Assembly (NCBI GenBank): GCA_037443035.1
Contig: JBBIPC010000020.1
Coordinates: 1 to 64,000 of the forward strand
DNA from: Chthonomonadales bacterium
GTDB lineage: Bacteria; Armatimonadota; Chthonomonadetes; Chthonomonadales; CAJBBX01
Length of the DNA stretch: 64,000 nucleotides
Direction of reading: 5' to 3'
Positions 43,942-57,361 of the stretch are shown one piece after another. A model generated the notes under the pieces. That model was not told the DNA's origin and searched no databases. It saw nothing but the letters and a program-made list of their open reading frames with translations. The translations under genes and the position numbers were made by a program. Each line of letters starts with the position of its first letter. Position 1 is the first letter of the stretch.

Positions 43942-44229
43942 ATGAAGATGTCAGTGACCAGCAAGCCTGCAACGGAGACAGCCGAACCGACGACAGAGAC
44001 CGGTGAACACATCGTCATTGTCTACAACAACGACTACAACACCTTCGACGAGGTGATCGCCATACTGATGAAAGCCACCGGCTGCTCGTTGCAGGAAGCC
44101 AGCACGGAAACGTGGGAAATTCACAACCTCGGTAAGTCGGTGGTTCACCATGGGAGCGCAGAGGAGTGCCAACGCGCGGCGGCCATCATCCGGACGATCG
44201 GCATCCGAGTTGAAGTCCGACCCCTCTAG
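43942..44229 (+). CDS. clpS: ClpS-like Clp protease adaptor
   Basis: VIVYNNDYNTFDEVI and EIHNLGKSVV. Confidence 0.85.
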   Translation: MKMSVTSKPATETAEPTTETGEHIVIVYNNDYNTFDEVIAILMKATGCSLQEASTETWEIHNLGKSVVHHGSAEECQRAAAIIRTIGIRVEVRPL

Positions 44230-46464
44230 TCACTCTCGTTCCAGCGTGCGAATGACGTCCAGGCAATTGAGCACCTTCTCGGCAAGATCCAGGGGCACAT
44301 AGTAGTAGTGACTCGTTGCTTCGAACCCGATGCGCGTGTCAGCCATCTGCAGGTCGTACAGTGTCTTGGCGCGCTCTAGCTCTGTCCGTGCGAGGGATGC
44401 CATGCGCTGGCGAAGCCTCGCTCTCTCATCGCCAACTGCGCCAACCGCCGCGTTGCGAAGGGCGATGAATTCTGCTTGGTCTGCTGTGCTGCCGAAGTGA
44501 AGAGCGCATGTTCTCAAGACGCCTAGCTCGAGTTCCAGTGCACTCCGGCGCGAACCGGCATCGTCGAGAAGGCTCTGTAGGCGCGTCGCTGCCGTCTGGA
44601 AGCCCTCTGCTACTGTGCGCATCTGCTGGATTAATACTTCCGCAGGATAGACAGATCGCCAGCTGTCGAGGTCATCGTACGGTATGCCCACCATTGTGGC
44701 GTGATATCCCGTTGGAGCGAGCCACAACAGGTTGGAGGGACCCGCGTGCTGGGGACCGGTGTAGACTGTCTGGATATGGAATGGGAACTCCCTGAACGAA
44801 TCACTGGCCAAGTTCCAGGCTTCGACGACGGCCGGAGCGACGGAAGAGCCATATCTGGACGCGGCTACGGCGCTCATGGCCTCGTCCACTGTCATCCCAC
44901 TCAGGACATTCCGCACAACCTCCAGGTTCGGACTCGGATAGCCGCCCACTGTCCAACCGAGCATCACCCCGTCAACGCCTGACTCACGCAGGTTCCTGGC
45001 ATGTTCTGCAACCAAGCGGACCGCCGGGATGTACGGCGCTGCGGACATCTCCCACGTCGCGCCTGCCTGGATCTTCGCGAGGACACGAAGACCATGGTCC
45101 TTGGCGATGGCCCAGTGACGCTGGGCGCGTGGTCCTGGACCGACGGCGCTGATGGAGTACTCACCGACGACGGCAGGGACACCCCCGCGCTGGATGGGCA
45201 GGCTCCATTCCGAGACGCTCATGAAAGACACTCCTCGCGGAAGCGCACGGATGGCACACTCGGCCCAGTCGTCCGGCCAGGCCCAGTCCCAGACGATGAG
45301 CTGCTGCTTGCCGCCTGCCGCCTGGATGCCGTCGTAGAACAGGCGGTTCACCTCCGCGATGACCTCTGCACCAGGTCTCTGTGCACATCGCGGGCACGAA
45401 CTGGCCCCATGGTGGGACCAGCAGTTCGTCAGGTTTTCGGACATGGTAATCGTGAAGAAGCCGCCGAGATCCGGCACGGCGCTAGCGATGGCAGCAATGG
45501 CGTCCCTGAGATATGCCTGGACCTCTGGAACGCTTGTGCACAGCGATGCGTGGTCTCCTTCTACTGCTCCTCTGAGTTCCGGGTGCTGTTCGTAGAAGCG
45601 AAGTGGCATGGCTCGCGGCTCGTTCAGGTAAAGATAGACCCGAATGCCATGCCGTTTGGCCCTGGCCACGAGCCGCCGGAGGTTGGCGAGGCGGTTCTGG
45701 TAGCCTTCGCTCAATCTACTGTCCCACGGGAACGGATGCAGTTTGTACAGAACTGCCTGCAGCCAGACGCCGTCCACTCCCGCTTCGGCAAGGCGCGCAA
45801 GGTAGCCGTTCGGGTAGGGATCGTTGTGCGGATCGGCGAGTGGATCACCGTAGAGGCCGAAGTAGGAGTAACAGAAACGCGGCGTCACGGGGATCTGCCT
45901 CTGGGGTGGTGCCTTGTAAGGTGCCGAGAGATCTCGCACGAACTGGAAGAGGGGACGCCGTAGCGAACCAACGCCCTGCCGAAACTCGCGCGCAACCACG
46001 GTAGCGATAGCCTTCTCTGCAGCCACTACTGATGCGTCAGGCTTGGTATAGCGCAAGGGCTCGCATCGAGGCTTCAAGTTGCCGAGCTTCACGAACAGGA
46101 AGTCGTCCTCGCGCAACGTGAAGGCCATCTGCTCAGGCGTCCAGCCGAGTAGGTCGAGGAGCTGTTCGTAGGGAAGGATGTGCCAGTTACGCCTGATGAT
46201 GGTGACGTACGAACGCCGCCACTGGTCCGAAGTGATGCGCGGCGGTCCCTGGAGTCCCATGGCGTGTCCCATGCGCAGGATGTCCTCCCTGCGCGCGCCA
46301 ACGACGCTAGCCATGCGCTCGGGTGGGACAAGCTGCCAGTTCCGCCAGACGAAGGCGTGCAGTCGGTCCGGAAAGTGCGGCGTGGCCAGAGCTGCCGGTG
46401 CGGAACCCATGGGAAGGTCAGCTACGCCGGTCGGTAGTGCAGCGAACAATGCCGGAACGAACAT
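44230..46464 (-). CDS. Uncharacterised TIM-barrel (glycoside hydrolase-like) protein
   Basis: AGVDGVWLQ, GIRVYLYLNEPR and LIVWDW beta/alpha pattern; family not assignable by eye. Confidence 0.55.
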   Translation of the reverse strand: MFVPALFAALPTGVADLPMGSAPAALATPHFPDRLHAFVWRNWQLVPPERMASVVGARREDILRMGHAMGLQGPPRITSDQWRRSYVTIIRRNWHILPYEQLLDLLGWTPEQMAFTLREDDFLFVKLGNLKPRCEPLRYTKPDASVVAAEKAIATVVAREFRQGVGSLRRPLFQFVRDLSAPYKAPPQRQIPVTPRFCYSYFGLYGDPLADPHNDPYPNGYLARLAEAGVDGVWLQAVLYKLHPFPWDSRLSEGYQNRLANLRRLVARAKRHGIRVYLYLNEPRAMPLRFYEQHPELRGAVEGDHASLCTSVPEVQAYLRDAIAAIASAVPDLGGFFTITMSENLTNCWSHHGASSCPRCAQRPGAEVIAEVNRLFYDGIQAAGGKQQLIVWDWAWPDDWAECAIRALPRGVSFMSVSEWSLPIQRGGVPAVVGEYSISAVGPGPRAQRHWAIAKDHGLRVLAKIQAGATWEMSAAPYIPAVRLVAEHARNLRESGVDGVMLGWTVGGYPSPNLEVVRNVLSGMTVDEAMSAVAASRYGSSVAPAVVEAWNLASDSFREFPFHIQTVYTGPQHAGPSNLLWLAPTGYHATMVGIPYDDLDSWRSVYPAEVLIQQMRTVAEGFQTAATRLQSLLDDAGSRRSALELELGVLRTCALHFGSTADQAEFIALRNAAVGAVGDERARLRQRMASLARTELERAKTLYDLQMADTRIGFEATSHYYYVPLDLAEKVLNCLDVIRTLERE

Positions 46465-46522
46465 GTCGGTGGTCCTCCGTGCGGATGCGAGCAAGTGGTA
46501 ACGATACGAAGAGATTACTTAG

Positions 46523-48340
46523 TCACCTGCGCCCGTGAACCCTCCACAACGCGTAGTCTGGCCTGACGTCCACGGGCGATGTTGCATAGCGGGCTAGAGC
46601 AGGGGGTCTAGCGCTGCGAGTAAGGATCAGCACGGGCCCCTGCACCAGCAAGCGGTTGTAGTCGAGGTCCGCGACCCGCTTGGGTTCGAGCACCCGCTGA
46701 TGGCGAATGGCGTCGTCAGGCACGTAGTAAAGAACGCTGGGCCGGCGAGGGGCGCTGATGTCAACGATGAGGATGCCTCTGTCCGCGATCATCCGTCCAC
46801 CACGGCGCGTGAGTGCGTGGAGCGAGCCAATGGCATGGCGGTTGAGCAGTGGAACACCCAGGTGGACGACGAGGGCAACGAACACCGCCATTCCAGCCAA
46901 AGCCATCGCTGCCGCGTGTACAGGTCTCCGCACCCAGGAAGCCACCACAGCCGCTAGCAAGCCAAGAAGCGCAGGGGCGAGCGAGGTGCCGCTCCGGCGA
47001 AGCAGCGTGCGCACCGTGTCGCTGAGGACTACGTGTCGGTCGGCATAGCGGTTCACGAGCGCGACAATGGGATCCGGCCGCATGAGAACAAGCCAGAGAA
47101 TGGCCAGGATACTGAGACCGGCACTCGCCACTATGACTAGCCATTTCGGCGAGCATGATGATCGACCGAGACGGACAACGTAGTCACCAGAAAGGAGTGC
47201 AGCGGCAGGGTACAGAGGAAGGATGTAGCTGATGAGTTTGGATCCGCTCGCCGAGAACACCAAGAACGTCACCCAGAACCACGTCTTGAGAAGGCTTCTT
47301 GCTTCAGCGTCGGCCAGGCACTCAGAGCCGTGGCCAAAGCTTGGGTCGGTGCCGCTCTTGGATGGCGCTTCCTCTGGTGCTCGCGTTTGTCGTGCGCCGG
47401 AGCTTCCGGATGTGGGCGACGAGCGCTCGACGAGGGCTGCTGCCGTCAAGACGCTCCAAGGGAAGAAACCGAGAAGGAAGCCCGGAATGAAGAACCACAC
47501 TGGCGCTCGATGGCTCTGATCACCTCCCTGAAAGCGTCGTAGGTGCTGCCGGATGATGTACTCCTGTACGAACACTCTACCGTTAGCATGCCATGCTGCT
47601 AGGTGCCAGGGGAGAGTGACGAGCAGCACTAACGATAGGCATAAAGTGATCAAGATGACATGGCTGGCAAAGGACTCGGCGGAACGTGTCTGGACCGTCG
47701 CTGAATGTTGCCTTGTCGGATCGGTAGCAGCCCGTATCCTCACGAACACCCACCACAGGGCGAGCACGAGGACAGGCAAGACGATGCCCGGTGCTCCCTT
47801 GGCAAGCGCTCCGCAGCCTGCTGCAATAGCGGAGGATACGGCCCAGCTCACACGTGGCGCACCTGATGCGAGTTGGGCCTCGAATAGGCAAACAATGGTC
47901 GCGGCAACGCATAGCGCTAGCAGGGCATCCGTGGTGGCAAGACGGCCTGCGCCTACCATGACAGGTCCAAGAGCGAGAAACGCTCCTGCAAGCAATCCTG
48001 GCAGACGCCCAAGCCTGCGCCTGCCGAACCACGACGTGAGGAGCACAAGCAAGGACGCGGCCAGTGCGGACGGAAACCGAGCGGCGAACTCCGTTCGGCC
48101 GAAGGTTCGGATCGAGAGTGCACCGAGCCAGTAGAGGAGAGGCGGCTTCTCGAAGAACGGCCGGTGGTTCACGCGCGGCGTCACGATGTCGCCGGTCAGA
48201 GCCATCTCCCTTGCCGCCTCGGTGTAGAGGCCCTCGTCGAGATCCGTGATGTCGAGCGCTCCCAAGCGTACCCAGAAAGCGAGTGCACACAGTCCGGCGA
48301 GAAGAGCGCTCGGCCACGCGCGGGCGCACCAAGTGCTCAC
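46523..48340 (-). CDS. ArnT/PMT-like GT-C glycosyltransferase (copy 2)
   Basis: DLDEGLYTEAAREM, FEKPPLLYW, LAKG and KLISYILPLYP. Confidence 0.9.
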   Translation of the reverse strand: MSTWCARAWPSALLAGLCALAFWVRLGALDITDLDEGLYTEAAREMALTGDIVTPRVNHRPFFEKPPLLYWLGALSIRTFGRTEFAARFPSALAASLLVLLTSWFGRRRLGRLPGLLAGAFLALGPVMVGAGRLATTDALLALCVAATIVCLFEAQLASGAPRVSWAVSSAIAAGCGALAKGAPGIVLPVLVLALWWVFVRIRAATDPTRQHSATVQTRSAESFASHVILITLCLSLVLLVTLPWHLAAWHANGRVFVQEYIIRQHLRRFQGGDQSHRAPVWFFIPGFLLGFFPWSVLTAAALVERSSPTSGSSGARQTRAPEEAPSKSGTDPSFGHGSECLADAEARSLLKTWFWVTFLVFSASGSKLISYILPLYPAAALLSGDYVVRLGRSSCSPKWLVIVASAGLSILAILWLVLMRPDPIVALVNRYADRHVVLSDTVRTLLRRSGTSLAPALLGLLAAVVASWVRRPVHAAAMALAGMAVFVALVVHLGVPLLNRHAIGSLHALTRRGGRMIADRGILIVDISAPRRPSVLYYVPDDAIRHQRVLEPKRVADLDYNRLLVQGPVLILTRSARPPALARYATSPVDVRPDYALWRVHGRR

Positions 48341-50031
48341 GGTGCAGTCCTAGTGACCGCGAAGAGGGACCATCGGCCAGCGCGCTGTACCACCTCCACC
48401 ATGCCCAGACCGTCGAGCGTCTCTCTGCCCCGGTCTGAGTCCGCAATCACGTGGGCACGAGCCGATGCTGCGATCGCGTCCCGCACCGGCTCCTGGTCCC
48501 AGGACTCCAGAAGGAAACCCCTCCGAGGATCCGCTGGTAAAGGACCCATGAAGAGGTGACGCGGCAGATAGAAAAACAAGCTCGGTCGTCGCGGGCGTCC
48601 GATGTGGACGATAAGCGGAGCGCCGTTCTGACCAAGCGTACTGGCCGCAGCGGCAATTCGGCGCAGCGGCAGGTTCACTGCCCGATCATAGGCTGGAAGA
48701 CCTGTTTCCCAGGTCAACACTGTGAATAGCACCATCGTCGTGACAACACCAGCAACACCCGTTGGGGGCCGGATCCATGCCATGCCTGCAGAAACGGCCA
48801 AGCCAACGGCGAGCAGCGCCAGTACCACGTACGCGTACGTGATCATAGCGGGTGTCGTGAGCTGGAGCGCCTCGGGATCTGTCAAGCGATGGACGTGTGT
48901 GTAGAGGTAGTACCATCCGAAACCTGTAACGGCGAGCTGAATGACGGCGGCGGTCGTGATTCCGGCTAGCAAGAGGGGGGAACGCCTGTGTGTTGCCTCC
49001 CAGACTTGCAGCGAACGGTCAATGGCAATGGCCGTCAGCAGTGCAAGGGCCGGGAAGATAGGCAGGAGGTAGCTTACCAGCTTGGATTTCATCAGGCTGA
49101 ACAAGATGAAACCGGTCGCGGCCCAACAGACGACGAAGCCGTGTAGATCGGCGAATTCCGATCGCTTGGACCTGCTCAGCGCCAAGGGTAACATGAGGCT
49201 CCACGGAAAGAACGCACCGAGGAGCACCGGCAGGTAGTACCAGACTGGTCGGGCATGCCCGAACTCGGTGCCGTGCAGGATGCCCAAGTGGTGGAGTGTC
49301 CAGTACTCGTAAACGAAGAAAGAGCCATCCTTGCGGTAGGCGAGCACGTGCCACGGTGCGATAATCGCAACCAAGACCACCAGCCCGAGAACAGGGCGCA
49401 TCTCGAGGGCGCAGCGAATGGCATTTCCGAGCTTCCACTTGCTTCGCAAGAGGACGTAGACTAACACGACCGGCACCGGCAGCAGACCGGGGAAGCTCTT
49501 GGATAGGAAACCCAAGCCACAGCATGCCCAGAACGCGATCCACCAAGCAGTCGCACGCCTTCCAACTGACTGCATGGCCAGCCAAGCTGATACGAGGGCG
49601 CCAGCCACCCACCAGGTCTGGTGAATGTCCATCGTCATCTGCCGCGCCGTTCCGAGCACGATCGGATTGAGGCTGAACGCGGCAGCGGCGAGGAGGCCAA
49701 CGCGCCTCCCAAGCCTACTGCCGAGCCAGAACGTTAGTAAAGTTGTCAGCGTGGCAGCGATCGCCACCGGTAGGCGGGCGCACCATTCGCTGAACCCGAA
49801 GACACGGAAAAGCAGGGCCGTCTGCCAGAGGGCCAAAGGTGGCTTGTCGTAGAATGGGACTCCGTTGACGCGACCCGTCACGTAGTCATCGCGTAGAACC
49901 ATTTCCCGGGCCGCTTCGACATATAGCCCTTCGTTGAAGTCAAAGAGACCTGGTGTTCCGAGGCGCCAGAAGTAGCAGATGGCGCAAAGCGCCGCCACGA
50001 CGACCAGACCCTGACGGTGCTGCGCTCCCAT
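48337..50031 (-). CDS. ArnT/PMT-like GT-C glycosyltransferase (copy 1)
   Basis: DFNEGLYVEAAREM, YDKPPL and KLVSYLLPIFP. Confidence 0.9.
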   Translation of the reverse strand: MGAQHRQGLVVVAALCAICYFWRLGTPGLFDFNEGLYVEAAREMVLRDDYVTGRVNGVPFYDKPPLALWQTALLFRVFGFSEWCARLPVAIAATLTTLLTFWLGSRLGRRVGLLAAAAFSLNPIVLGTARQMTMDIHQTWWVAGALVSAWLAMQSVGRRATAWWIAFWACCGLGFLSKSFPGLLPVPVVLVYVLLRSKWKLGNAIRCALEMRPVLGLVVLVAIIAPWHVLAYRKDGSFFVYEYWTLHHLGILHGTEFGHARPVWYYLPVLLGAFFPWSLMLPLALSRSKRSEFADLHGFVVCWAATGFILFSLMKSKLVSYLLPIFPALALLTAIAIDRSLQVWEATHRRSPLLLAGITTAAVIQLAVTGFGWYYLYTHVHRLTDPEALQLTTPAMITYAYVVLALLAVGLAVSAGMAWIRPPTGVAGVVTTMVLFTVLTWETGLPAYDRAVNLPLRRIAAAASTLGQNGAPLIVHIGRPRRPSLFFYLPRHLFMGPLPADPRRGFLLESWDQEPVRDAIAASARAHVIADSDRGRETLDGLGMVEVVQRAGRWSLFAVTRTAP

Positions 50032-50726: not shown

Positions 50727-52262
50727 TCAAGCGTCGGCGTGCTTGCCTCGGACGTTCCGCTTGGGACGGCGATAGCGGAACCAGGGGCTGTTCAGGGCTG
50801 CCACGAACCGCTCGGCTTCCTTCGCGTACGGGTGAAATGGATTCCGCAAGGCGAGATGATGGCCGGGTTCGACGAAGACGCCGTCCCAGTCCACGGCATA
50901 GTTCAGATCGGCCTGGTCTAGCAGCTCGGCGACCACGACGCCACGGCCGTAGGCCCGTGTGTTCGGTGGAGGCTCCAGAATGGCTTTGCTTACGTCGAGT
51001 TCATCCGTAACGCGATACATGCGCTGGTCCTGCTCCAGGGCTGCATGCAAGCTCACAGCAGGGTTGATGTTGTGATACTCGAGGTCCAAGCTGTGGAGCA
51101 CGTCGTCTCGCCAGGAGACACCCTCCGACTCGATGAATAGCTCGTACATGACCCTCTTGGCCGACCAATCCAGCCGATCGGCTGTGGATAGAGGATCCCG
51201 CTCGAGGTCGTCCAAAACTCGTTCCCATTCGCGGAGCGTCCAGTCGGTGTCCTCGTCACGTCCGGCGAAGTACCGCTGAGCAGAGCGTAAGTAGCGCCGT
51301 TGCAGGTCCACAGCTCCTATCGTACGCCCATCGTGGAGGGTCACCGTCCAGCGGTACGAAGGATCGCGCGAGACATGCCGGAGTGCCATCAGGGGGTCGC
51401 GAACTTGGAGTCCGTCGGGCGCAAGGTGATGCTCCAGGAGGTCGAGCACAACCGCGGTCGTGCCGACCTTCAGCATGGCTGCATATTCGCTCTGGTTCGA
51501 TTCCCCGAACAGCAGATGCAAACGATACATACCGTTGTAGGCATAGAGGTCGTCCCACTTGGGGTTGATGATCGCACGGTTGAACCGAACCCTGGAAGAC
51601 ACCGTGCGGACGATGTGATCGGCCCGTTGCGACAACTGAAACTCCACCGTCGGGTCTATCTCGACGCCGTAGAAGTTACTGACCCAGACGTAATCCACTT
51701 CGTGTTCACCGATAGAGAGTACGTTGGAGCGACTGTCTGGTCGAGTGAGACGGTGCCCACCGACCCGTCCCACACCCGCGAAGATCTGGCGCGTCACCAA
51801 GAAGGGCAAGAGACCTTCCACCATCTTCACGAGGCTGTCTTCCTCGACGCGCACGAGGTAATTCTCATGACATCCGAAGGTGTGACCGCCGAAGTGGTCT
51901 ACGGAGTTGTTGTGGAAGCTCGCGCCGTCCTGAATCTCGAGGTCCTCCAGCAAGGACTGAAGAAGCGCCCGTCCCGCTCGGTCATAGGTGATGAGCTGAC
52001 GCAGTGAAGTGCATTCCGGCGTTGCATACTCCTCGTGGCTGCCCACGGCGTCAATGTAGAGCCGTCCGCCGTTCACGAGGAATCCTCCGGCCCCGGCTGG
52101 CTCGAAGGCGAAGTCCCGGTTGTGCAGGTCGAGGAGCCCCAGGCGCCTCTGTTGGAATGCGGCGTTCTTGACGCGCTCCACCACGTCCTCGGGGTCGCCC
52201 AGCGCAGGGTCTCGGACGAAGCACCCGAACTCAGTCTCCAAGCCGAAGATGTGCGTCTCCAT
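50727..52262 (-). CDS. pafA: PafA-family ligase (probable UBact-protein ligase)
   Basis: FGLETEFG, NGGRLYIDAVGSHEEYATPEC, GCHENYL, SQRADH, LDLEYH and VDWD; no Dop loop. Confidence 0.88.
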   Translation of the reverse strand: METHIFGLETEFGCFVRDPALGDPEDVVERVKNAAFQQRRLGLLDLHNRDFAFEPAGAGGFLVNGGRLYIDAVGSHEEYATPECTSLRQLITYDRAGRALLQSLLEDLEIQDGASFHNNSVDHFGGHTFGCHENYLVRVEEDSLVKMVEGLLPFLVTRQIFAGVGRVGGHRLTRPDSRSNVLSIGEHEVDYVWVSNFYGVEIDPTVEFQLSQRADHIVRTVSSRVRFNRAIINPKWDDLYAYNGMYRLHLLFGESNQSEYAAMLKVGTTAVVLDLLEHHLAPDGLQVRDPLMALRHVSRDPSYRWTVTLHDGRTIGAVDLQRRYLRSAQRYFAGRDEDTDWTLREWERVLDDLERDPLSTADRLDWSAKRVMYELFIESEGVSWRDDVLHSLDLEYHNINPAVSLHAALEQDQRMYRVTDELDVSKAILEPPPNTRAYGRGVVVAELLDQADLNYAVDWDGVFVEPGHHLALRNPFHPYAKEAERFVAALNSPWFRYRRPKRNVRGKHADA

Positions 52263-52271
52263 CGTAGGAAA

Positions 52272-53069
52272 TCAGCGCGTCGCAGGAGGAGGCGATGTGT
52301 AAGGGGCCACGAGTGGTTCGGTCTCCGAAGCCGCGTACAGCCTGAAGCGTGCTTCTCGCGTGGAGAGACGGTCGAGGATGCCAACCTCTACGCGCGCATG
52401 CGCCAGTTCTTCGCGAAGCGTTTGCGCCAGACGGGCGGAGCTTGTATCCACCGCCGACGTCTCCTCCTCGTCACGATCGCGCTCCGCTTGAACGATGTAT
52501 CCCAGTGCCCAGGCCTCTAGGACCTTGGGAAGGGCATCGGCGATTGTTGGAGCTGCTCCCAGCTCTTCGAGGGAATTGCGAACCGCTTCTTCGGCGCGTC
52601 TCGTACCTGCCACCGCAGCCGCCCCGCTGTGAGCGGAAAACTCGCCGTCGTAGTTGAGCACGTAGAACACATCTTGATCCGGGGTGTCTCCGAGTTCCCC
52701 AAAGAGCGCGCGAATGACAGACGGCGCGCGAAATTGATCCCGGAAGACCTCCTTCAGAGCGGGGCTAAGGGCGAAGCCGACAAGCCTCTGTACCGTTACG
52801 TCGTCTGGACTGCGTTCGTAACCCTCACGGGCGGCAAGGTCCACAGCTGCCAGACGCACGGCCTCGATGTCCGACTGGTTCCCAATGGCCGAGTAGATCA
52901 AGCGGTCATAGATCTCGAAGACCTTGCGCTGGGTTCTGCGAACTGTCAGAACCGCCAGCGCCTCCTGGCAGCTAACGGCGATGACCGGACTGCCATAGCG
53001 AAGGCCTTCTTCGGCGTGTTCCCGCCTCTGATGGATGGCCTCGTTGAAATCGAAAGGTGTGAATGCCAT
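52272..53069 (-). CDS. prcA: 20S proteasome alpha subunit
   Basis: RKVFEIYDRLIYSAIG and SPDDVT; lies between prcB and pafA. Confidence 0.9.
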   Translation of the reverse strand: MAFTPFDFNEAIHQRREHAEEGLRYGSPVIAVSCQEALAVLTVRRTQRKVFEIYDRLIYSAIGNQSDIEAVRLAAVDLAAREGYERSPDDVTVQRLVGFALSPALKEVFRDQFRAPSVIRALFGELGDTPDQDVFYVLNYDGEFSAHSGAAAVAGTRRAEEAVRNSLEELGAAPTIADALPKVLEAWALGYIVQAERDRDEEETSAVDTSSARLAQTLREELAHARVEVGILDRLSTREARFRLYAASETEPLVAPYTSPPPATR

Positions 53070-53072
53070 GGC

Positions 53073-53861
53073 TTAGCGCTCCCGTCCGGCGATCTCCCGC
53101 GTCAGGGAGGAAAGCTCTTCCTCGGGGACATCCTCTATACCGGACGCACTGATACACCGCGCCAGCGGCAGCACTTTGGACCAGCCGCCCGTGGCGGCGT
53201 CAAGATCCGCGGCGATGTCCAGCAGCAATAACGCCTCGCGCAGTGCCTCCTGCCGCGGCATCTTGTGGAAGGGACCACGGGTCTTCACGATGTAGTCGAA
53301 CACACCGCGAATCTGCAGCGAGCCGGAGCCTGCGGCAGCGAACTCCGTGCTCTCAAAGCGCGCCCCCATGGCATCGTAGAAGAAGATGCGTCCTTCACCG
53401 GCCTTGAGGTCGAAGGTGCTGAGGACTGGCAGAAAGCCTCCGATCCCCTGCAAGGCGGCAGGAAGACTCGCCGCCACGACCTTCGCGACCTCGGCGACCT
53501 TGCCAGATAGACTCATGGGTTGGAGCTGCGAGCGTTCGAAGTACCGGAAGGTATGGCGCAGATACCGGACGACCTCCATGGCACGCGCGTAGGATCCGGA
53601 GATAGCCAGCAGTGTGTAGTCGTCGATGGGCAGGACCTTCTCGGCGCGGTCGTACATCACCGCGAAGTTCGCTGTAGCACGGCGATCTCCGACGTTGATG
53701 ACGCCGCCGTCATACTTCACGGCGATGACCGTCGTGCCGCGTGTCTCCACCACACTCTGCCGACGATCGTCTATTCGAGCAAGGTCCGCGGGCAGTCGGG
53801 GTAGGGGGATTGCCTCACGCTCGCCGACGATGGCAGTTCGCAAGTCCAAATGTTTCACCAC
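53073..53861 (-). CDS. prcB: 20S proteasome beta subunit with 42 aa propeptide
   Basis: TRG|TTVIAV...GDRRAT...EK gives Thr1, Asp17 and Lys33 in mature numbering; GSGS motif present. Confidence 0.93.
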   Translation of the reverse strand: MVKHLDLRTAIVGEREAIPLPRLPADLARIDDRRQSVVETRGTTVIAVKYDGGVINVGDRRATANFAVMYDRAEKVLPIDDYTLLAISGSYARAMEVVRYLRHTFRYFERSQLQPMSLSGKVAEVAKVVAASLPAALQGIGGFLPVLSTFDLKAGEGRIFFYDAMGARFESTEFAAAGSGSLQIRGVFDYIVKTRGPFHKMPRQEALREALLLLDIAADLDAATGGWSKVLPLARCISASGIEDVPEEELSSLTREIAGRER

Positions 53862-54041
53862 TCACTGACCGCTGCGCTGCCGATAGCGGCGCGCAGCATC
53901 GGGATCCACTTGCTTCATGCGCCGCAGCAGCTCGTTGGTCTCAGGACGTCGTATATTCGGCTTCGTTGGACCTGCGCCCTCCTTCTGTGGAGGTGTCCCG
54001 GGCACAGGTCGAGTGATGCGTTCTTCTGCACGCACAGTCAT
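53862..54041 (-). CDS. ubact: Prokaryotic ubiquitin-like protein UBact (59 aa, not in the ORF track)
   Basis: Translates to MTVRAEERITRPVPGTPPQKEGAGPTKPNIRRPETNELLRRMKQVDPDAARRYRQRSGQ. GAGGAGG SD; ATGA overlap with the dop stop; its stop abuts the prcB start. Confidence 0.92.
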   Translation of the reverse strand: MTVRAEERITRPVPGTPPQKEGAGPTKPNIRRPETNELLRRMKQVDPDAARRYRQRSGQ

Positions 54042-55603
54042 TTTCGTTCCTCCTCATGCTGCGGCTGGGTGCAAGCCAACAGCGGAGCTGGCGCGTACTG
54101 CCGCAGCACCGCAACGGTTTCATCCATTGTCTTGGCCGATGCGAGTCGGGCGTTCCATGGCGCCAAGTGCCCATCAACGAGGGCGTTCATGTCGAAGAGC
54201 CATTCATCGCCGCCGTAGCGGAAAGCGATCGTATTCCAGCCAATGGCAGTAACCGCTTCAGCATGGTGGCGCACGCAGTGACCCCGAATGAACGCGCGGG
54301 TGTCAGCCGGCGGCTCCGACGCGGCCCGGCGCACCTGCGCATCGGACACGAGGCATCGCATGGATCCCTCGACGTCACGCAGAGCTGCGAACAGGCTGGT
54401 CTCAGGATTGACATCATGGTAGGCCAACTCGACGCTTCGCAGTTCATCCAACGCTGGCGTGTGCCGACAGGAGGCTGCGTACTCGCGAAGGACGCGTCGC
54501 TTGGCGACCCAGTCTACGCGATCGGATGTTCGCTCGGGATCGTCGGCAAGGTCCGCGAGAACCTGGCTCCATTCCGCAAGCACCCACTCACGATCGGGTA
54601 GAGCGGAGCCATAGTCCGCAGCCGCCTCGAGAAAGACGTGCTGGATAGCAAGGGGGCTCCAATCGGAGACAGATCCTGTGCGGCGATCCCGGACGGGCAC
54701 GGCCGTGCGGAGATCTGGGTCGGACGCAACGGCATGTACGGCAGCCACGGCGTCCACTAGCTCGATGTGCGGTACCCATCCCCCCTCCAACAGATCGAGC
54801 ACGAGGGCGAGGGTGCCAACCTTCATGGCCGTGGCCCATTCACTCATGTTCGCATCGCCGGTGATGACATGCAGGCGGCGATAGTCACGCGCGCATGCAT
54901 GCGGCTCATCCCTAGTGTTCACGAGCGGGCGCCGGTACTGCGTATCCACGCTGGCCACGACATCCACGTATTCTGCGCGTTGGGAAACCTGGTAGCAGGT
55001 CGCTTCGCACGGCTGGAGATCACGTCCCACCTTGCCGGCTCCGGCGAAAACCTGGCGGGTGGCAAGGAACGAGGAGAGGGCACCGATCAGCACTTCAGGG
55101 GCCACGCTCCGGCGCAGGAGGTAAGATTCGTGGGTTCCGTAACAAGCACCGTGATAGTCGGTGTTGTTCTTGTACACACGTACCGATCTGCCGGTAGTCG
55201 CGGCATACAGCCGTGCACAATCGGAGACTATCTGCTCCCCAGCCCGATCATGTGCAACCAGACTACGCAAGTCGGTGCACTCAGGAGTGCTGTACTCCGG
55301 GTGACCGTGGTCGTTGTATAGCCGCGCACCGTTGCCGAGTACCCGATCGCTGTGTTCCTCAGCGAGCGATCCGAAACGCGGCGCGCATATGTCGAACGCG
55401 GCGTCGCCCGGGTCCCGCTGCAGGTGCTCTACCCGGAAACCACGCCAGTCCCTGCGCGGATCTTCGCCGGTGTAGTTCCATGCGGTGACGCTCGGGCCGT
55501 CGTACGCCTGCACGACTGCTCTGGCCTCTGCCACAAGCTGGCCGGGAGCGACCCCTTCCATGTGGAGGCCGTATTCCGTTTCGATGCCAAGCAGTCGCGT
55601 CAT
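54038..55603 (-). CDS. dop: Dop-family deamidase/deconjugase
   Basis: LGIETEYG, Dop loop WNYTGEDPRRDWRGF, YNDHGHPEYSTPEC, KNNTD, NTRDEPHA and RRLHVI. Confidence 0.9.
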   Translation of the reverse strand: MTRLLGIETEYGLHMEGVAPGQLVAEARAVVQAYDGPSVTAWNYTGEDPRRDWRGFRVEHLQRDPGDAAFDICAPRFGSLAEEHSDRVLGNGARLYNDHGHPEYSTPECTDLRSLVAHDRAGEQIVSDCARLYAATTGRSVRVYKNNTDYHGACYGTHESYLLRRSVAPEVLIGALSSFLATRQVFAGAGKVGRDLQPCEATCYQVSQRAEYVDVVASVDTQYRRPLVNTRDEPHACARDYRRLHVITGDANMSEWATAMKVGTLALVLDLLEGGWVPHIELVDAVAAVHAVASDPDLRTAVPVRDRRTGSVSDWSPLAIQHVFLEAAADYGSALPDREWVLAEWSQVLADLADDPERTSDRVDWVAKRRVLREYAASCRHTPALDELRSVELAYHDVNPETSLFAALRDVEGSMRCLVSDAQVRRAASEPPADTRAFIRGHCVRHHAEAVTAIGWNTIAFRYGGDEWLFDMNALVDGHLAPWNARLASAKTMDETVAVLRQYAPAPLLACTQPQHEEERK

Positions 55604-55645
55604 GAGCGGTAATGGTCCGTGACGAACGACGTTACCGTCGCGCAG

Positions 55646-57361
55646 TCAGATAATGTCCCGAGCTATGCTGGGACGCGAGCGTTCCGCCTTGATGGGTCGA
55701 ACTGTCGCCACGTTCTCCGGCTCGTAGTCTAGTAGCTTCAGCCAGTCCTCCTGCGCATCGCTCTTAGGGAAGATTTCGTTCTCCTTATACTCCACTCGCA
55801 CGGCCTCTCGCAGGTCTTCGATGGTTACGCCGCCGTCGTCGTTGCCACGAGCGATGCAGCGGTGTATAGCCAGGTCCTTGGCTCGCTCCACCACGGACCG
55901 GATGAGGGCACCGCTGACCAGATCGCGCCAATAGAGTGTTTCGACTCCGCCGTTGCGGAGAAAGACTTCGAGGAAGCTAGTCTCGGAATCGCGACGCCAG
56001 AGAAACTCGACGGCGAGGTCCAAGAGCTCTTCGCGAGCGGAAGCCGCATCGCCCTTGTGCTGACGCACGAGATCGGGGTCTATGGGAATGCCTGCATGGA
56101 GATAGATACCGAAGATGTCTCGGCTAGCCTTGCGATCGGGCCTGTCCACTTTGACCTTCCGGTCTATACGCTCGGGACGCAGTATCGCCGGGTCAATGTA
56201 ATCAGGTCTGTTGGAGGTGATCATGACGACCACATTGTCCAGGCTAACCAAGCCATCCATTTCCGCGCAGAACTGCGGGACGACTGTGTTGGAGATGTTC
56301 AGCCAGCGGCCGGATGTTCGGGTGCGGAGAAGCGATTCCGCTTCGTCGACAAAGAGAAACACAAGATGGCCGTCGCGAGCCTTGGCCCGAGCCGTTGCGA
56401 AGATCTCGCGTATCATCCGCTCCGTCTCTCCGAGCCACATGTTCAGGATCTTTGGCCCGCTGATGTACATGAAGTACTCGCGGACGTCCGTCTGAGTGAA
56501 CTCGCGATACGCCCGTGTGAGATTGTAGGCGGTGGCCTTACCGATGAGCGTCTTGCCACAGCCGGGCGGGCCATACAGCAGTATCCCCTTGAGAGGACGC
56601 TTCTCGAATCTTGCGTACAGCTCGGGGTGGAGCATGGGGAGCTGAATAGCATCGGTGATCACCTGAATGACGTGATCCTGACCACCGATCTGACTCCACT
56701 CGATCGGCGGGACTTCTTCCAGGAAGTAGTCCTGGATGTCCTTGGTCGGGAAGTGCTCGATGGCTACCTTCATGTTCGGCTCGAGACGCACGTCATCGCC
56801 TGCCTTCAGCGGCACGCTACGAAGGTCCGTGGAGCGTAGAACGACGCGCGACTGGAGTCCCTGAGCATCTTGAGCAACCCGCAAGAGGTCGTCCCCGACA
56901 ACCTCACTCACCTTCGCCAGAGAACCTCCCGGGTGATAGCCAAGGTCGCCGACTATGGCAAACGCGTCGTTGACCTTCACGCGGGTGCCGACTTTGGGAT
57001 TCGTGCTGGCGACTTCCGGAGCGACGCCAGCCACATACTCCTGGTCGCCAATGGCGATAAGCGCTGTCTCTTGGTCGATGGCGCCTAGGTATACGGCGAG
57101 GCGGTTGGCCGGCGACGTCAGCCGCTTCACCGTCTCGTCGTACTCGGCTTTCAGCCGTGCGGATTGCTCCAGCTCCTTGCCCTGAATCTCCATTGCCTGA
57201 CGCAGCGTCATGAGCCGATGCAATCGAGGATCGGTGCGGGGCGTATCGCGTATGAGCTCGTTCAGAATCTTCGTGGCGTAGCGATGGAGACGAAGACCCT
57301 TGTTGGCATCCTGGGTGCTATCGCTGTCATCCGTGAAGGACTGGGTATCGGTTTCGTCCAT
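55646..57361 (-). CDS. arc: Proteasomal AAA+ ATPase (ARC/Mpa family)
   Basis: N-terminal coiled coil and OB-like region, GPPGCGKT, FVDEAES, SNRPDYIDPAILRP and ENEIFP. Confidence 0.92.
   Translation of the reverse strand: MDETDTQSFTDDSDSTQDANKGLRLHRYATKILNELIRDTPRTDPRLHRLMTLRQAMEIQGKELEQSARLKAEYDETVKRLTSPANRLAVYLGAIDQETALIAIGDQEYVAGVAPEVASTNPKVGTRVKVNDAFAIVGDLGYHPGGSLAKVSEVVGDDLLRVAQDAQGLQSRVVLRSTDLRSVPLKAGDDVRLEPNMKVAIEHFPTKDIQDYFLEEVPPIEWSQIGGQDHVIQVITDAIQLPMLHPELYARFEKRPLKGILLYGPPGCGKTLIGKATAYNLTRAYREFTQTDVREYFMYISGPKILNMWLGETERMIREIFATARAKARDGHLVFLFVDEAESLLRTRTSGRWLNISNTVVPQFCAEMDGLVSLDNVVVMITSNRPDYIDPAILRPERIDRKVKVDRPDRKASRDIFGIYLHAGIPIDPDLVRQHKGDAASAREELLDLAVEFLWRRDSETSFLEVFLRNGGVETLYWRDLVSGALIRSVVERAKDLAIHRCIARGNDDGGVTIEDLREAVRVEYKENEIFPKSDAQEDWLKLLDYEPENVATVRPIKAERSRPSIARDII

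What the first reader, a model, noticed from the sequence alone, without database searches (positions are those of the whole stretch)
50727..57361. Complete non-actinobacterial ubiquitin-like tagging and 20S proteasome operon (arc-dop-ubact-prcB-prcA-pafA)
Seen: six tightly packed minus-strand genes (gaps of 42 nt or less, one ATGA overlap) encode an ARC-type ATPase, a Dop-type deamidase, a small tag, both 20S subunits and a PafA-type ligase. Established: this architecture mirrors the actinobacterial Pup-proteasome system. A Pup analogue named UBact has been described bioinformatically in some Gram-negative phyla, but to my knowledge its conjugation chemistry and substrates are little characterised. 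Inference: this is a self-contained tag-and-degrade pathway in a diderm organism. No pafBC or tat genes flank it here, unlike many actinobacterial loci.
Basis: partly seen in the sequence, partly recalled or inferred. Interest (0 to 1): 0.88.

Follow-up and report, generated by a model that had tools for sequence, protein, structure and literature searches.

The report
UBact proteasome operon, tyrosine-free docking tail
This is an intact six-gene cluster of an already described but untested kind, predicted to tag proteins with the small protein UBact and destroy them in a bacterial proteasome; its unfoldase lacks the tyrosine tail that known proteasome activators dock with, and the proteasome pocket it likely docks into has changed to match.

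Summary
Six intact minus-strand genes, arc-dop-ubact-prcB-prcA-pafA-like, have gaps of 42, -4, 0, 3 and 9 nt. The tag passes both UBact models, and no Pup was found in the genome. The host is a diderm Armatimonadota bacterium, probably Chthonomonadales. UBact occurs in 40 of 41 genomes of the order. The system was described in 2017, and this scan found it before on other DNA, including the odd ARC tail. I found no bench test of it.

Added here: the ARC tail lacks the GQYL/HbYX tyrosine in 120 of 120 close homologues and in 15 of 15 UBact-type metagenome loci. All 10 Pup-type loci keep GQYL. PrcA loses both tyrosine contacts (R26, E119) but keeps K52 and D144. This suggests a tyrosine-free docking code; it is untested and rests on one phylogenetic contrast. 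The 'PafA' looks like a ligase by diagnostic residues, but its orthology to PafA is unresolved (AU p=0.50). Verdict: an ordinary member of a known, uncharacterised family; 0.88 is too high.

The parts
55646..57361 (-). arc: proteasomal AAA+ unfoldase (N-terminal helix, two OB domains, AAA with Walker A GPPGCGKT and pore loop W-L-G); C-terminus ends R-D-I-I, with no GQYL/HbYX
   Evidence: Pfam PF17758, PF16450, PF00004; TIGR03689 441.7 bits, below 504.75; best PDB hits are the mycobacterial ATPase, E 7e-96; tails
54038..55603 (-). dop: predicted deamidase/de-UBact-ylase with Dop-loop motif (residues 42-56) and catalytic Asp98
   Evidence: TIGR03688 402.9 vs TIGR03686 303 bits; single-stretch alignment to A. 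cellulolyticus Dop, E 1e-94; Dop-loop motif in 54 of 57 full-length relatives
53862..54041 (-). ubact: 59-aa tag, Pro-rich N-half, basic conserved C-half ending R-S-G-Q (Gln form)
   Evidence: PF20513 75 bits > 27.8; NF033388 75.1 > 35; no PDB relative at E<=10; invariant C-terminal residues in 57 sequences
53073..53861 (-). prcB: 20S beta subunit, 42-residue propeptide then Thr1; Asp17, Lys33 and GSG intact; Arg rather than His at position -2
   Evidence: PF00227 88.5 bits; PDB alignment to actinobacterial beta subunits, E 2e-28; T1, D17, K33 invariant in 120 of 120 homologues
52272..53069 (-). prcA: 20S alpha subunit; activator pocket keeps K49 (=K52) and D141 (=D144) but has Y25 (=R26), V118 (=E119) and E143 (=S146)
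   Evidence: TIGR03691 69.7 bits; PDB alignments, E 3e-9; column counts
50727..52262 (-). pafA-like: predicted UBact ligase; no Dop-loop motif; catalytic Asp71; two lineage-specific inserts (about residues 40-57 and 170-205)
   Evidence: PF03136 407 bits; 10 of 20 readable PafA/Dop diagnostic positions PafA-type, 2 Dop-type (one search read against Table 1 of PMC7947786); model pLDDT 86.7 with Dop/PafA fold

Best explanation
The six genes are an intact UBact-proteasome operon of an Armatimonadota bacterium that likely works like pupylation: Dop would convert the tag's C-terminal Gln to Glu, the PafA-like enzyme would use ATP to join that Glu to lysines of target proteins, and ARC would unfold tagged proteins into the PrcA/PrcB 20S core. 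Shown: gene content and order, family membership, intact catalytic motifs, and single copies of each gene in the genome. Inferred by homology: deamidation, isopeptide ligation, tag removal by Dop, and capture of the tag by the ARC coiled coil. Inferred from co-variation: ARC likely docks with a tyrosine-free tail (consensus R-R-[NTD]-[IV]-I in Armatimonadota). Its terminal carboxylate would still meet the invariant alpha-subunit Lys, and its aliphatic penultimate residue would sit in a pocket that has lost both tyrosine-binding residues.
For: Tag above both UBact cut-offs. No Pup and no second Pup-ligase pair in the genome. Six genes collinear in 55 of 55 complete loci. Upstream enzyme has the Dop loop (54 of 57 relatives); the downstream one never does (0 of 77) and has the PafA-type G-[SDA]-H and SQRxDH motifs in 77 of 77. 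Tags end only in Gln or Glu (26 Q, 35 E in loci L021-L100), the two residues this chemistry accepts (PMC7947786). PrcB Thr1, Asp17 and Lys33 invariant in 120 of 120. ARC is the only candidate activator found: no Bpa, and no Cdc48-like double AAA protein among the ARC hits. Docking code: penultimate Tyr in 0 of 120 ARC homologues (I 80, V 40) and 0 of 15 UBact-type metagenome loci; GQYL in 10 of 10 Pup-type loci and both named actinobacterial controls. PrcA E119 equivalent is Glu in 0 of 65 Armatimonadota, 0 of 26 other UBact-type and 10 of 10 Pup-type sequences. R26 equivalent is Arg in 0 of 65, 2 of 26 and 10 of 10. K52 and D144 equivalents are invariant in all three sets. R26 and E119 are the residues that H-bond the GQYL tyrosine; K52 binds the carboxylate and D144 the main chain (PMC9599533).
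Against: No biochemical or expression evidence was obtained, and none was found in print. GQYL is described as required for gate opening, and R26 as essential for PafE-mediated degradation, in mycobacteria, so its loss could mean weak or absent coupling. The beta-hairpin residues D504/K505 that help Mpa dock are also not kept in this ARC. A basic residue one position before the R26 column is kept in 63 of 65 Armatimonadota PrcA and might partly replace it. The tail/pocket pattern is a single contrast between two clades, not independent repeats. The downstream enzyme scores higher against Dop than PafA (290 vs 281 bits; 221 vs 177 bits; Z 47.2, rmsd 2.6, 443 aligned vs Z 42.0, rmsd 2.5, 438 aligned). 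It also differs from PafA in its substrate-binding hinge and extended loop (R199->F, R207->K).
Confidence: 0.8

Rival explanations
1. Tagging and unfolding work, but ARC does not gate the 20S core through its tail. Coupling would use other surfaces or an unknown adaptor, or tagged proteins would be unfolded without being handed to the proteasome.
For: GQYL, both tyrosine contacts and the D504/K505 hairpin residues are all absent. Outside Armatimonadota the tail is only loosely conserved (last residue V or I). Cpa competes for the actinobacterial 20S without a GQYL motif (PMC8223512).
Against: The last two residues are aliphatic in 120 of 120 homologues. The end lies 32 residues from an upstream anchor motif in 70 of the 81 that show the motif (39 had no match). 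The pocket Lys and Asp are invariant. No other activator was found in the genome.
Confidence: 0.15
2. The downstream enzyme is not a ligase but a second hydrolase or an enzyme of mixed activity, so the operon's chemistry differs from pupylation.
For: Higher profile, sequence and fold scores to Dop than to PafA. The ligase|Dop split has only 65/50 support, and grouping the two UBact enzymes together is not rejected (p-AU 0.50). Eight of 20 diagnostic positions match neither enzyme.
Against: No Dop-loop motif in 77 of 77; 10 diagnostic positions are PafA-type and only 2 Dop-type. Loss of the loop plus a PafA-type alpha-loop converts Dop to a ligase (PMC7947786). A true Dop is already in the operon.
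Confidence: 0.05
3. An ordinary actinobacterial Pup locus, or a misassembled or recently transferred island.
For: Gene order equals that of the Nonomuraea control locus.
Against: No Pup in the genome. UBact vs Pup profile probability 2.3%. All components fall below actinobacterial cut-offs that the Nonomuraea Dop and PafA exceed. The locus is present across the order, and its pdxS/tpx flanks are shared with four close relatives. GC is flat.
Confidence: 0.01

Closest known systems
UBact conjugation-proteasome loci of Gram-negative bacteria (Lehmann, Udasin, Livneh, Ciechanover 2017, BBRC 483:946, PMID 28087277; Pfam PF20513, NCBIfam NF033388). The paper is not held; I saw only its citation in the reference lists of PMC5751360 and PMC12751074.
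   Same: Tag family, C-terminal R-[ST]-G-[QE], neighbouring arc/dop/prcB/prcA/pafA homologues, Gram-negative host. Proteasome subunits (PMC5666114) and Dop/PafA homologues (PMC7947786) in Armatimonadetes are already in print.
   Different: Nothing sets this copy apart from its family except Arg at PrcB position -2 (2 of 120 homologues share it). The tyrosine-free tail and altered pocket are family-wide traits; I cannot tell whether the 2017 paper mentions them.
Actinobacterial Pup-proteasome system (Mpa/ARC, Dop, Pup, PrcB, PrcA, PafA)
   Same: Gene order, enzyme folds, catalytic residues, Gln/Glu-ended tag, and a shared Y-x-Q-R-x-G-[QE] end between tags.
   Different: Tag not detectably homologous overall (2.3%) and of opposite charge (last 30 residues +4 to +6 in 57 UBact, -5 to -9 in 6 Pup). 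ARC has no GQYL. PrcA lacks R26 and E119. The ligase is a separate clade with two inserts. No Bpa and no PafBC were found in the genome.

Membership tests
UBact system | Small tag above the UBact family cut-offs | tested here: met
   PF20513 75 > 27.8; NF033388 75.1 > 35
UBact system | C-terminal R-[ST]-G-[QE] (pattern recalled from the 2017 description, not read) | tested here: met
   Window ends RSGQ; 81 of 81 tags with a complete end in loci L001-L100 end RQRSG[QE]
UBact system | Tag clustered with arc, dop, prcB, prcA and pafA homologues | tested here: met
UBact system | Gram-negative, non-actinobacterial host | tested here: met
   LpxC and Omp85 over cut-off; nearest named relatives Armatimonadota
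UBact system | Covalent conjugation of the tag to proteins | not testable with these tools
   Needs a bench assay
Actinobacterial Pup-proteasome system | Pup tag (PF05639) | tested here: not met
   No match at E<=1 in the genome; the C. glutamicum control matches; profile comparison 2.3%
Actinobacterial Pup-proteasome system | Equivalog cut-offs TIGR03686/03688/03689/03690/03691 | tested here: not met
   281<551, 403<492, 442<505, 149<192, 70<139; Nonomuraea PafA 761 and Dop 786 pass
Actinobacterial Pup-proteasome system | ATPase ends in GQYL/HbYX | tested here: not met
   Ends RDII; penultimate Tyr in 0 of 120 homologues; both named actinobacterial controls end GQYL
Dop (deamidase/depupylase) | Dop loop plus D-H-x-H-P-E-Y-S-T-P active-site segment | tested here: met
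   one alpha-loop position (Gly214 equivalent) is the PafA-type Ser
PafA (Pup ligase) | No Dop loop; V-G-S after the catalytic Asp; His and Ser-Ser in the alpha-loop | tested here: met
   against Table 1 of PMC7947786
PafA (Pup ligase) | One clade with actinobacterial PafA to the exclusion of Dop | tested here: inconclusive
   30-sequence IQ-TREE: four starred clades, split between ligases and Dops 65/50; alternative not rejected, p-AU 0.50; FastTree on 143 sequences groups all Dops at 98 but leaves the ligases' position open
20S proteasome core | Beta subunit with propeptide, Gly-1/Thr1, Asp17, Lys33; separate alpha subunit | tested here: met

The most novel reading that the evidence does not exclude
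UBact proteasomes use a docking code unlike the HbYX/GQYL motif of characterised proteasome ATPases: a tyrosine-free tail ending in two aliphatic residues (R-R-x-[IV]-I in Armatimonadota) that binds an alpha-ring pocket rebuilt to match (R26 and E119 lost, S146 to Glu, K52 and D144 kept). Together with a basic tag and a ligase that may have arisen from its own duplication, this would make the system orthogonal to pupylation.
Probability: 0.55. Interest if true: 0.55.

Novelty: new member of a known kind. Interest (0 to 1): 0.32.

Why it matters
The locus itself is routine for its order. It matters because a second bacterial tag-and-degrade system, present in 72 of 121 sampled genomes of one phylum, appears never to have been tested, and this compact operon is a convenient unit for reconstitution. 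If the tail/pocket co-variation reflects real docking, it would show that a penultimate tyrosine is not needed for an ATPase to engage a 20S core. It would also offer a tag-ligase-proteasome set orthogonal to Pup for proximity labelling or targeted degradation.

Tried and rejected
Complex prediction (UBact with the ligase) was not available, so tag-enzyme and tail-pocket binding were not modelled. A second fold, of the tag, was not accepted. Sequencing runs: no RNA holder listed; no reads were laid. The promoter/terminator scan gave counts at chance level (1 vs 1.9 and 3 vs 4.4), so operon limits and co-transcription with pdxS or tpx stay open. Charge reversal in the ARC coiled coil to match the basic tag: net charges overlap between UBact-type (-5 to +2) and Pup-type (-3 to +1) ARCs, so no support. 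A second activator with the same tail: among 34,792 ORFs of at least 60 aa, 8 end in [RK][NTDS][IV][IL]; one is ARC, the other seven are 63-104-aa frames that were not examined further; none ends GQYL. The third PF00227 hit in the genome reads as HslV by its sequence (my reading, no family scan). A conserved accessory gene: none; the commonest neighbour occurs in 17 of 80 loci, on the opposite strand, and has no Pfam hit. PrcB Arg(-2) as an assembly error: rejected, since two independent homologues share it. The genome titled 'Actinomycetes' (L098) was tried as a route to actinobacterial references; its phylum sample held UBact-type loci, so a Nonomuraea record and a Tsukamurella record were used instead. 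Literature searches for UBact experiments or a non-HbYX bacterial docking motif found none; the library lacks most subscription papers, including the 2017 UBact paper.
Full report
Observation. The six ORFs lie on the minus strand between 57361 and 50727, with gaps of 42, -4, 0, 3 and 9 nt. Pfam and NCBIfam identify them as a proteasomal ATPase with both OB domains, two Pup_ligase-family enzymes, UBact (75 bits against cut-offs of 27.8 and 35), and 20S beta and alpha subunits. The flanks are pdxS (175 nt upstream) and a thiol peroxidase (137 nt downstream). The genome is 100% complete by markers. It holds exactly two Pup_ligase genes, both in this operon; searches for Pup, Bpa and WYL found nothing.

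Host and distribution. LpxC and Omp85 are present. The best named relatives of the ligase and of ARC are Chthonomonadales and other Armatimonadota (ligase 58-70% identity; ARC names). UBact was found in 40 of 41 genomes of the order (the miss is 64% complete) and in 72 of 121 genomes drawn from the phylum, mostly present or absent by family. The scan behind one search confirmed 406 relatives and returned the best 80. Of these, 55 hold all six genes and all 55 are collinear; the other 25 hold a subset, through contig ends, the 9-kb flank limit or a split operon. Four close relatives share the pdxS and tpx flanks.

Tag. The 59-aa protein has a Pro-rich N-half and a conserved basic C-half ending Y-R-Q-R-S-G-Q. 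Relatives end in Glu (35) or Gln (26) in loci L021-L100. It has no PDB relative and is not significantly similar to Pup by profile comparison (2.3%; only the last 28 columns align). Net charge of the last 30 residues is +4 to +6 in 57 UBact sequences and -5 to -9 in 6 Pup sequences.

The two enzymes. The upstream one has the Dop-loop motif and aligns over its whole length with A. cellulolyticus Dop; 54 of 57 full-length relatives keep the motif. The downstream one lacks it in 77 of 77. I read its alignment to C. glutamicum PafA against the diagnostic table of PMC7947786 (I read parts 1-3 of 8 of that paper). Of the 22 listed positions, 20 are covered: 10 are PafA-type, 2 Dop-type and 8 neither. 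Against this, it scores slightly higher with Dop than with PafA in profiles (290 vs 281 bits), sequences (221 vs 177 bits) and folds (model pLDDT 86.7; Z 47.2, rmsd 2.6, 443 aligned to Dop vs Z 42.0, rmsd 2.5, 438 aligned to PafA). Residues that PafA uses to touch substrates are partly changed: R201 is kept, R207 is Lys, R199 is Phe and the SS hinge is GA (passages of bioRxiv 10.64898/2026.04.10.717840). Target preference may therefore differ.

Trees. A FastTree run used 143 sequences, including the 112 of 150 library hits that were 410-620 aa. It gives separate clades for UBact-type ligases (99), UBact-type Dops (100), cut-off-passing PafA and cut-off-passing Dop, with all Dops together at 98. 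A careful IQ-TREE on a hand-picked 30 of these confirms the four clades but supports the ligase|Dop split at only 65/50. The alternative, in which the UBact ligase and UBact Dop come from their own duplication, is not rejected (p-AU 0.50); the third arrangement was not tested. So it likely works as a ligase, but it cannot be filed as an orthologue of actinobacterial PafA.

Proteasome core and ATPase. PrcB has Gly-1/Thr1, Asp17, Lys33 and the GSG motif, each invariant in 120 of 120 homologues. Position -2 is Arg here, His in 117, Arg in 2 and Gln in 1. ARC keeps the Walker motifs and an aromatic-hydrophobic-Gly pore loop (motif as described in PMC8755798, passages).

The docking tail. Mycobacterial activators open the 20S core with a C-terminal GQYL. 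Its tyrosine H-bonds alpha-subunit R26 or E119, its carboxylate can pair with K52, and its main chain contacts D144 and S146 (passages of PMC12288473, PMC9599533 and PMC8223512). This ARC ends R-D-I-I. In the 120 best homologues (of 7999 hits) the penultimate residue is Ile (80) or Val (40) and the last is Ile (118) or Leu (2); Nonomuraea and Tsukamurella controls end GQYL. To see whether this goes beyond Armatimonadota I fetched 79 metagenome loci with a profile of more distant ligases; 25 had an ARC with a complete end. I grouped them by whether ARC was closer to the window's or to Nonomuraea's, not by tail. All 15 window-like ARCs lack Tyr and end in Val or Ile (14 have UBact in view). All 10 Nonomuraea-like ARCs end GQYL (a Pup tag was seen in 4 of them). 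The alpha-subunit pocket follows the same split. The E119 column is Glu in 10 of 10 Pup-type sequences (9 metagenome plus Nonomuraea), 0 of 26 UBact-type metagenome sequences (all aliphatic; one of the 26, L185, is Armatimonadota-like) and 0 of 65 Armatimonadota (Val 60, Ile 5). The R26 column is Arg in 10 of 10, 2 of 26 and 0 of 65 (Asp or Glu in 45). K52 and D144 are invariant in all three sets, and the S146 column is Glu or Asp in 65 of 65 Armatimonadota, where the tail is basic. The register at E119 follows MAFFT and the Rhodococcus PDB alignment; the HMMER alignment to the M. tuberculosis chain is shifted by one, and gives Ser rather than Val, still not Glu. The simplest reading is a co-evolved, tyrosine-free docking code. 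The caveats: it is one contrast between two clades, a basic residue sits one position before the R26 column in 63 of 65, the D504/K505 hairpin contacts are also changed, and no binding could be modelled.

Mechanism. Likely sequence, all inferred: Dop deamidates UBact-Gln59; the ligase phosphorylates the Glu and joins it to target lysines; the ARC coiled coil captures the tag's helical C-half while the loose N-half is threaded; the ARC tail seats in the alpha-ring pocket; PrcB Thr1 cleaves; Dop recycles or removes the tag. Confidence 0.8 for the pathway and about 0.55 for the tail as the docking element.

Prior knowledge. UBact and its neighbours were named in 2017 (PMID 28087277; not held, citation seen only). 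Armatimonadetes proteasome subunits and Dop/PafA homologues are mentioned in PMC5666114 (passages) and PMC7947786. PMC11354881 names UBact in one sentence. The UBact passage of PMC7203096 lies beyond the held text. PMC4254994 was read in passages only. No supplements were opened. Nine searches found no experimental study of UBact and no description of the tail or pocket. This scan holds 146 earlier notes with the words UBact and proteasome. Three describe the same operon in other Armatimonadota, and one already noted the tyrosine-free tail; I had recorded the tail and pocket before opening them. A word search for the pocket returned nothing.

Verdict. Real, intact and correctly described, but a new member of a known, database-annotated, widespread family. 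Interest 0.32, carried by the family's lack of characterisation and by the testable tail/pocket co-variation.

Noticed in passing
window 53739-53741 (prcB codon 41, minus strand): PrcB has Arg at propeptide position -2, where 117 of 120 homologues have His; two other homologues share Arg, so it is a natural variant. Effect on autoprocessing unknown.
   Followed up: partly
L113:5103-5457 (G071): Two tandem ubact-like genes, both ending RSGQ, with different N-halves. Two genomes also show a second, weaker UBact match.
   Followed up: no
L121:850-6489 (G051) and L122:2068-7417 (G065): A different arc-dop-tag-pafA-like locus in two Armatimonadota genomes, with tags ending GGQ/GGE, ARC tails ending RYMSLA and RYLHIA, and no 20S genes detected in the stretch; G051 also has the UBact operon.
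   Followed up: no
window 50727-52262, residues about 40-57 and 170-205: The ligase has a conserved insert where Dop has its loop and a second insert of about 35 residues, conserved in Armatimonadota; residues 176-196 have pLDDT below 50. Candidates for tag or substrate specificity.
   Followed up: partly
L026:7610-8812 (-) and relatives: A protein of about 400 aa with no Pfam hit lies just upstream of pafA on the opposite strand in 17 of 80 related loci; absent from the window.
   Followed up: partly
L041, L046, L092, L095, L100; L135, L137, L145, L166: pafA-like genes with several kb of flank and no other operon gene detected nearby, so the operon is split in some lineages.
   Followed up: no
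window 43942-46494: A clpS gene (43942-44229, +) abuts a 754-aa minus-strand ORF with no Pfam hit; two ArnT-like glycosyltransferase genes follow at 46523-50031.
   Followed up: no
L103:6393-11269: A record filed as a bacteriophage carries arc, dop, pup and pafA homologues of the Pup type; probably host DNA (inference).
   Followed up: no
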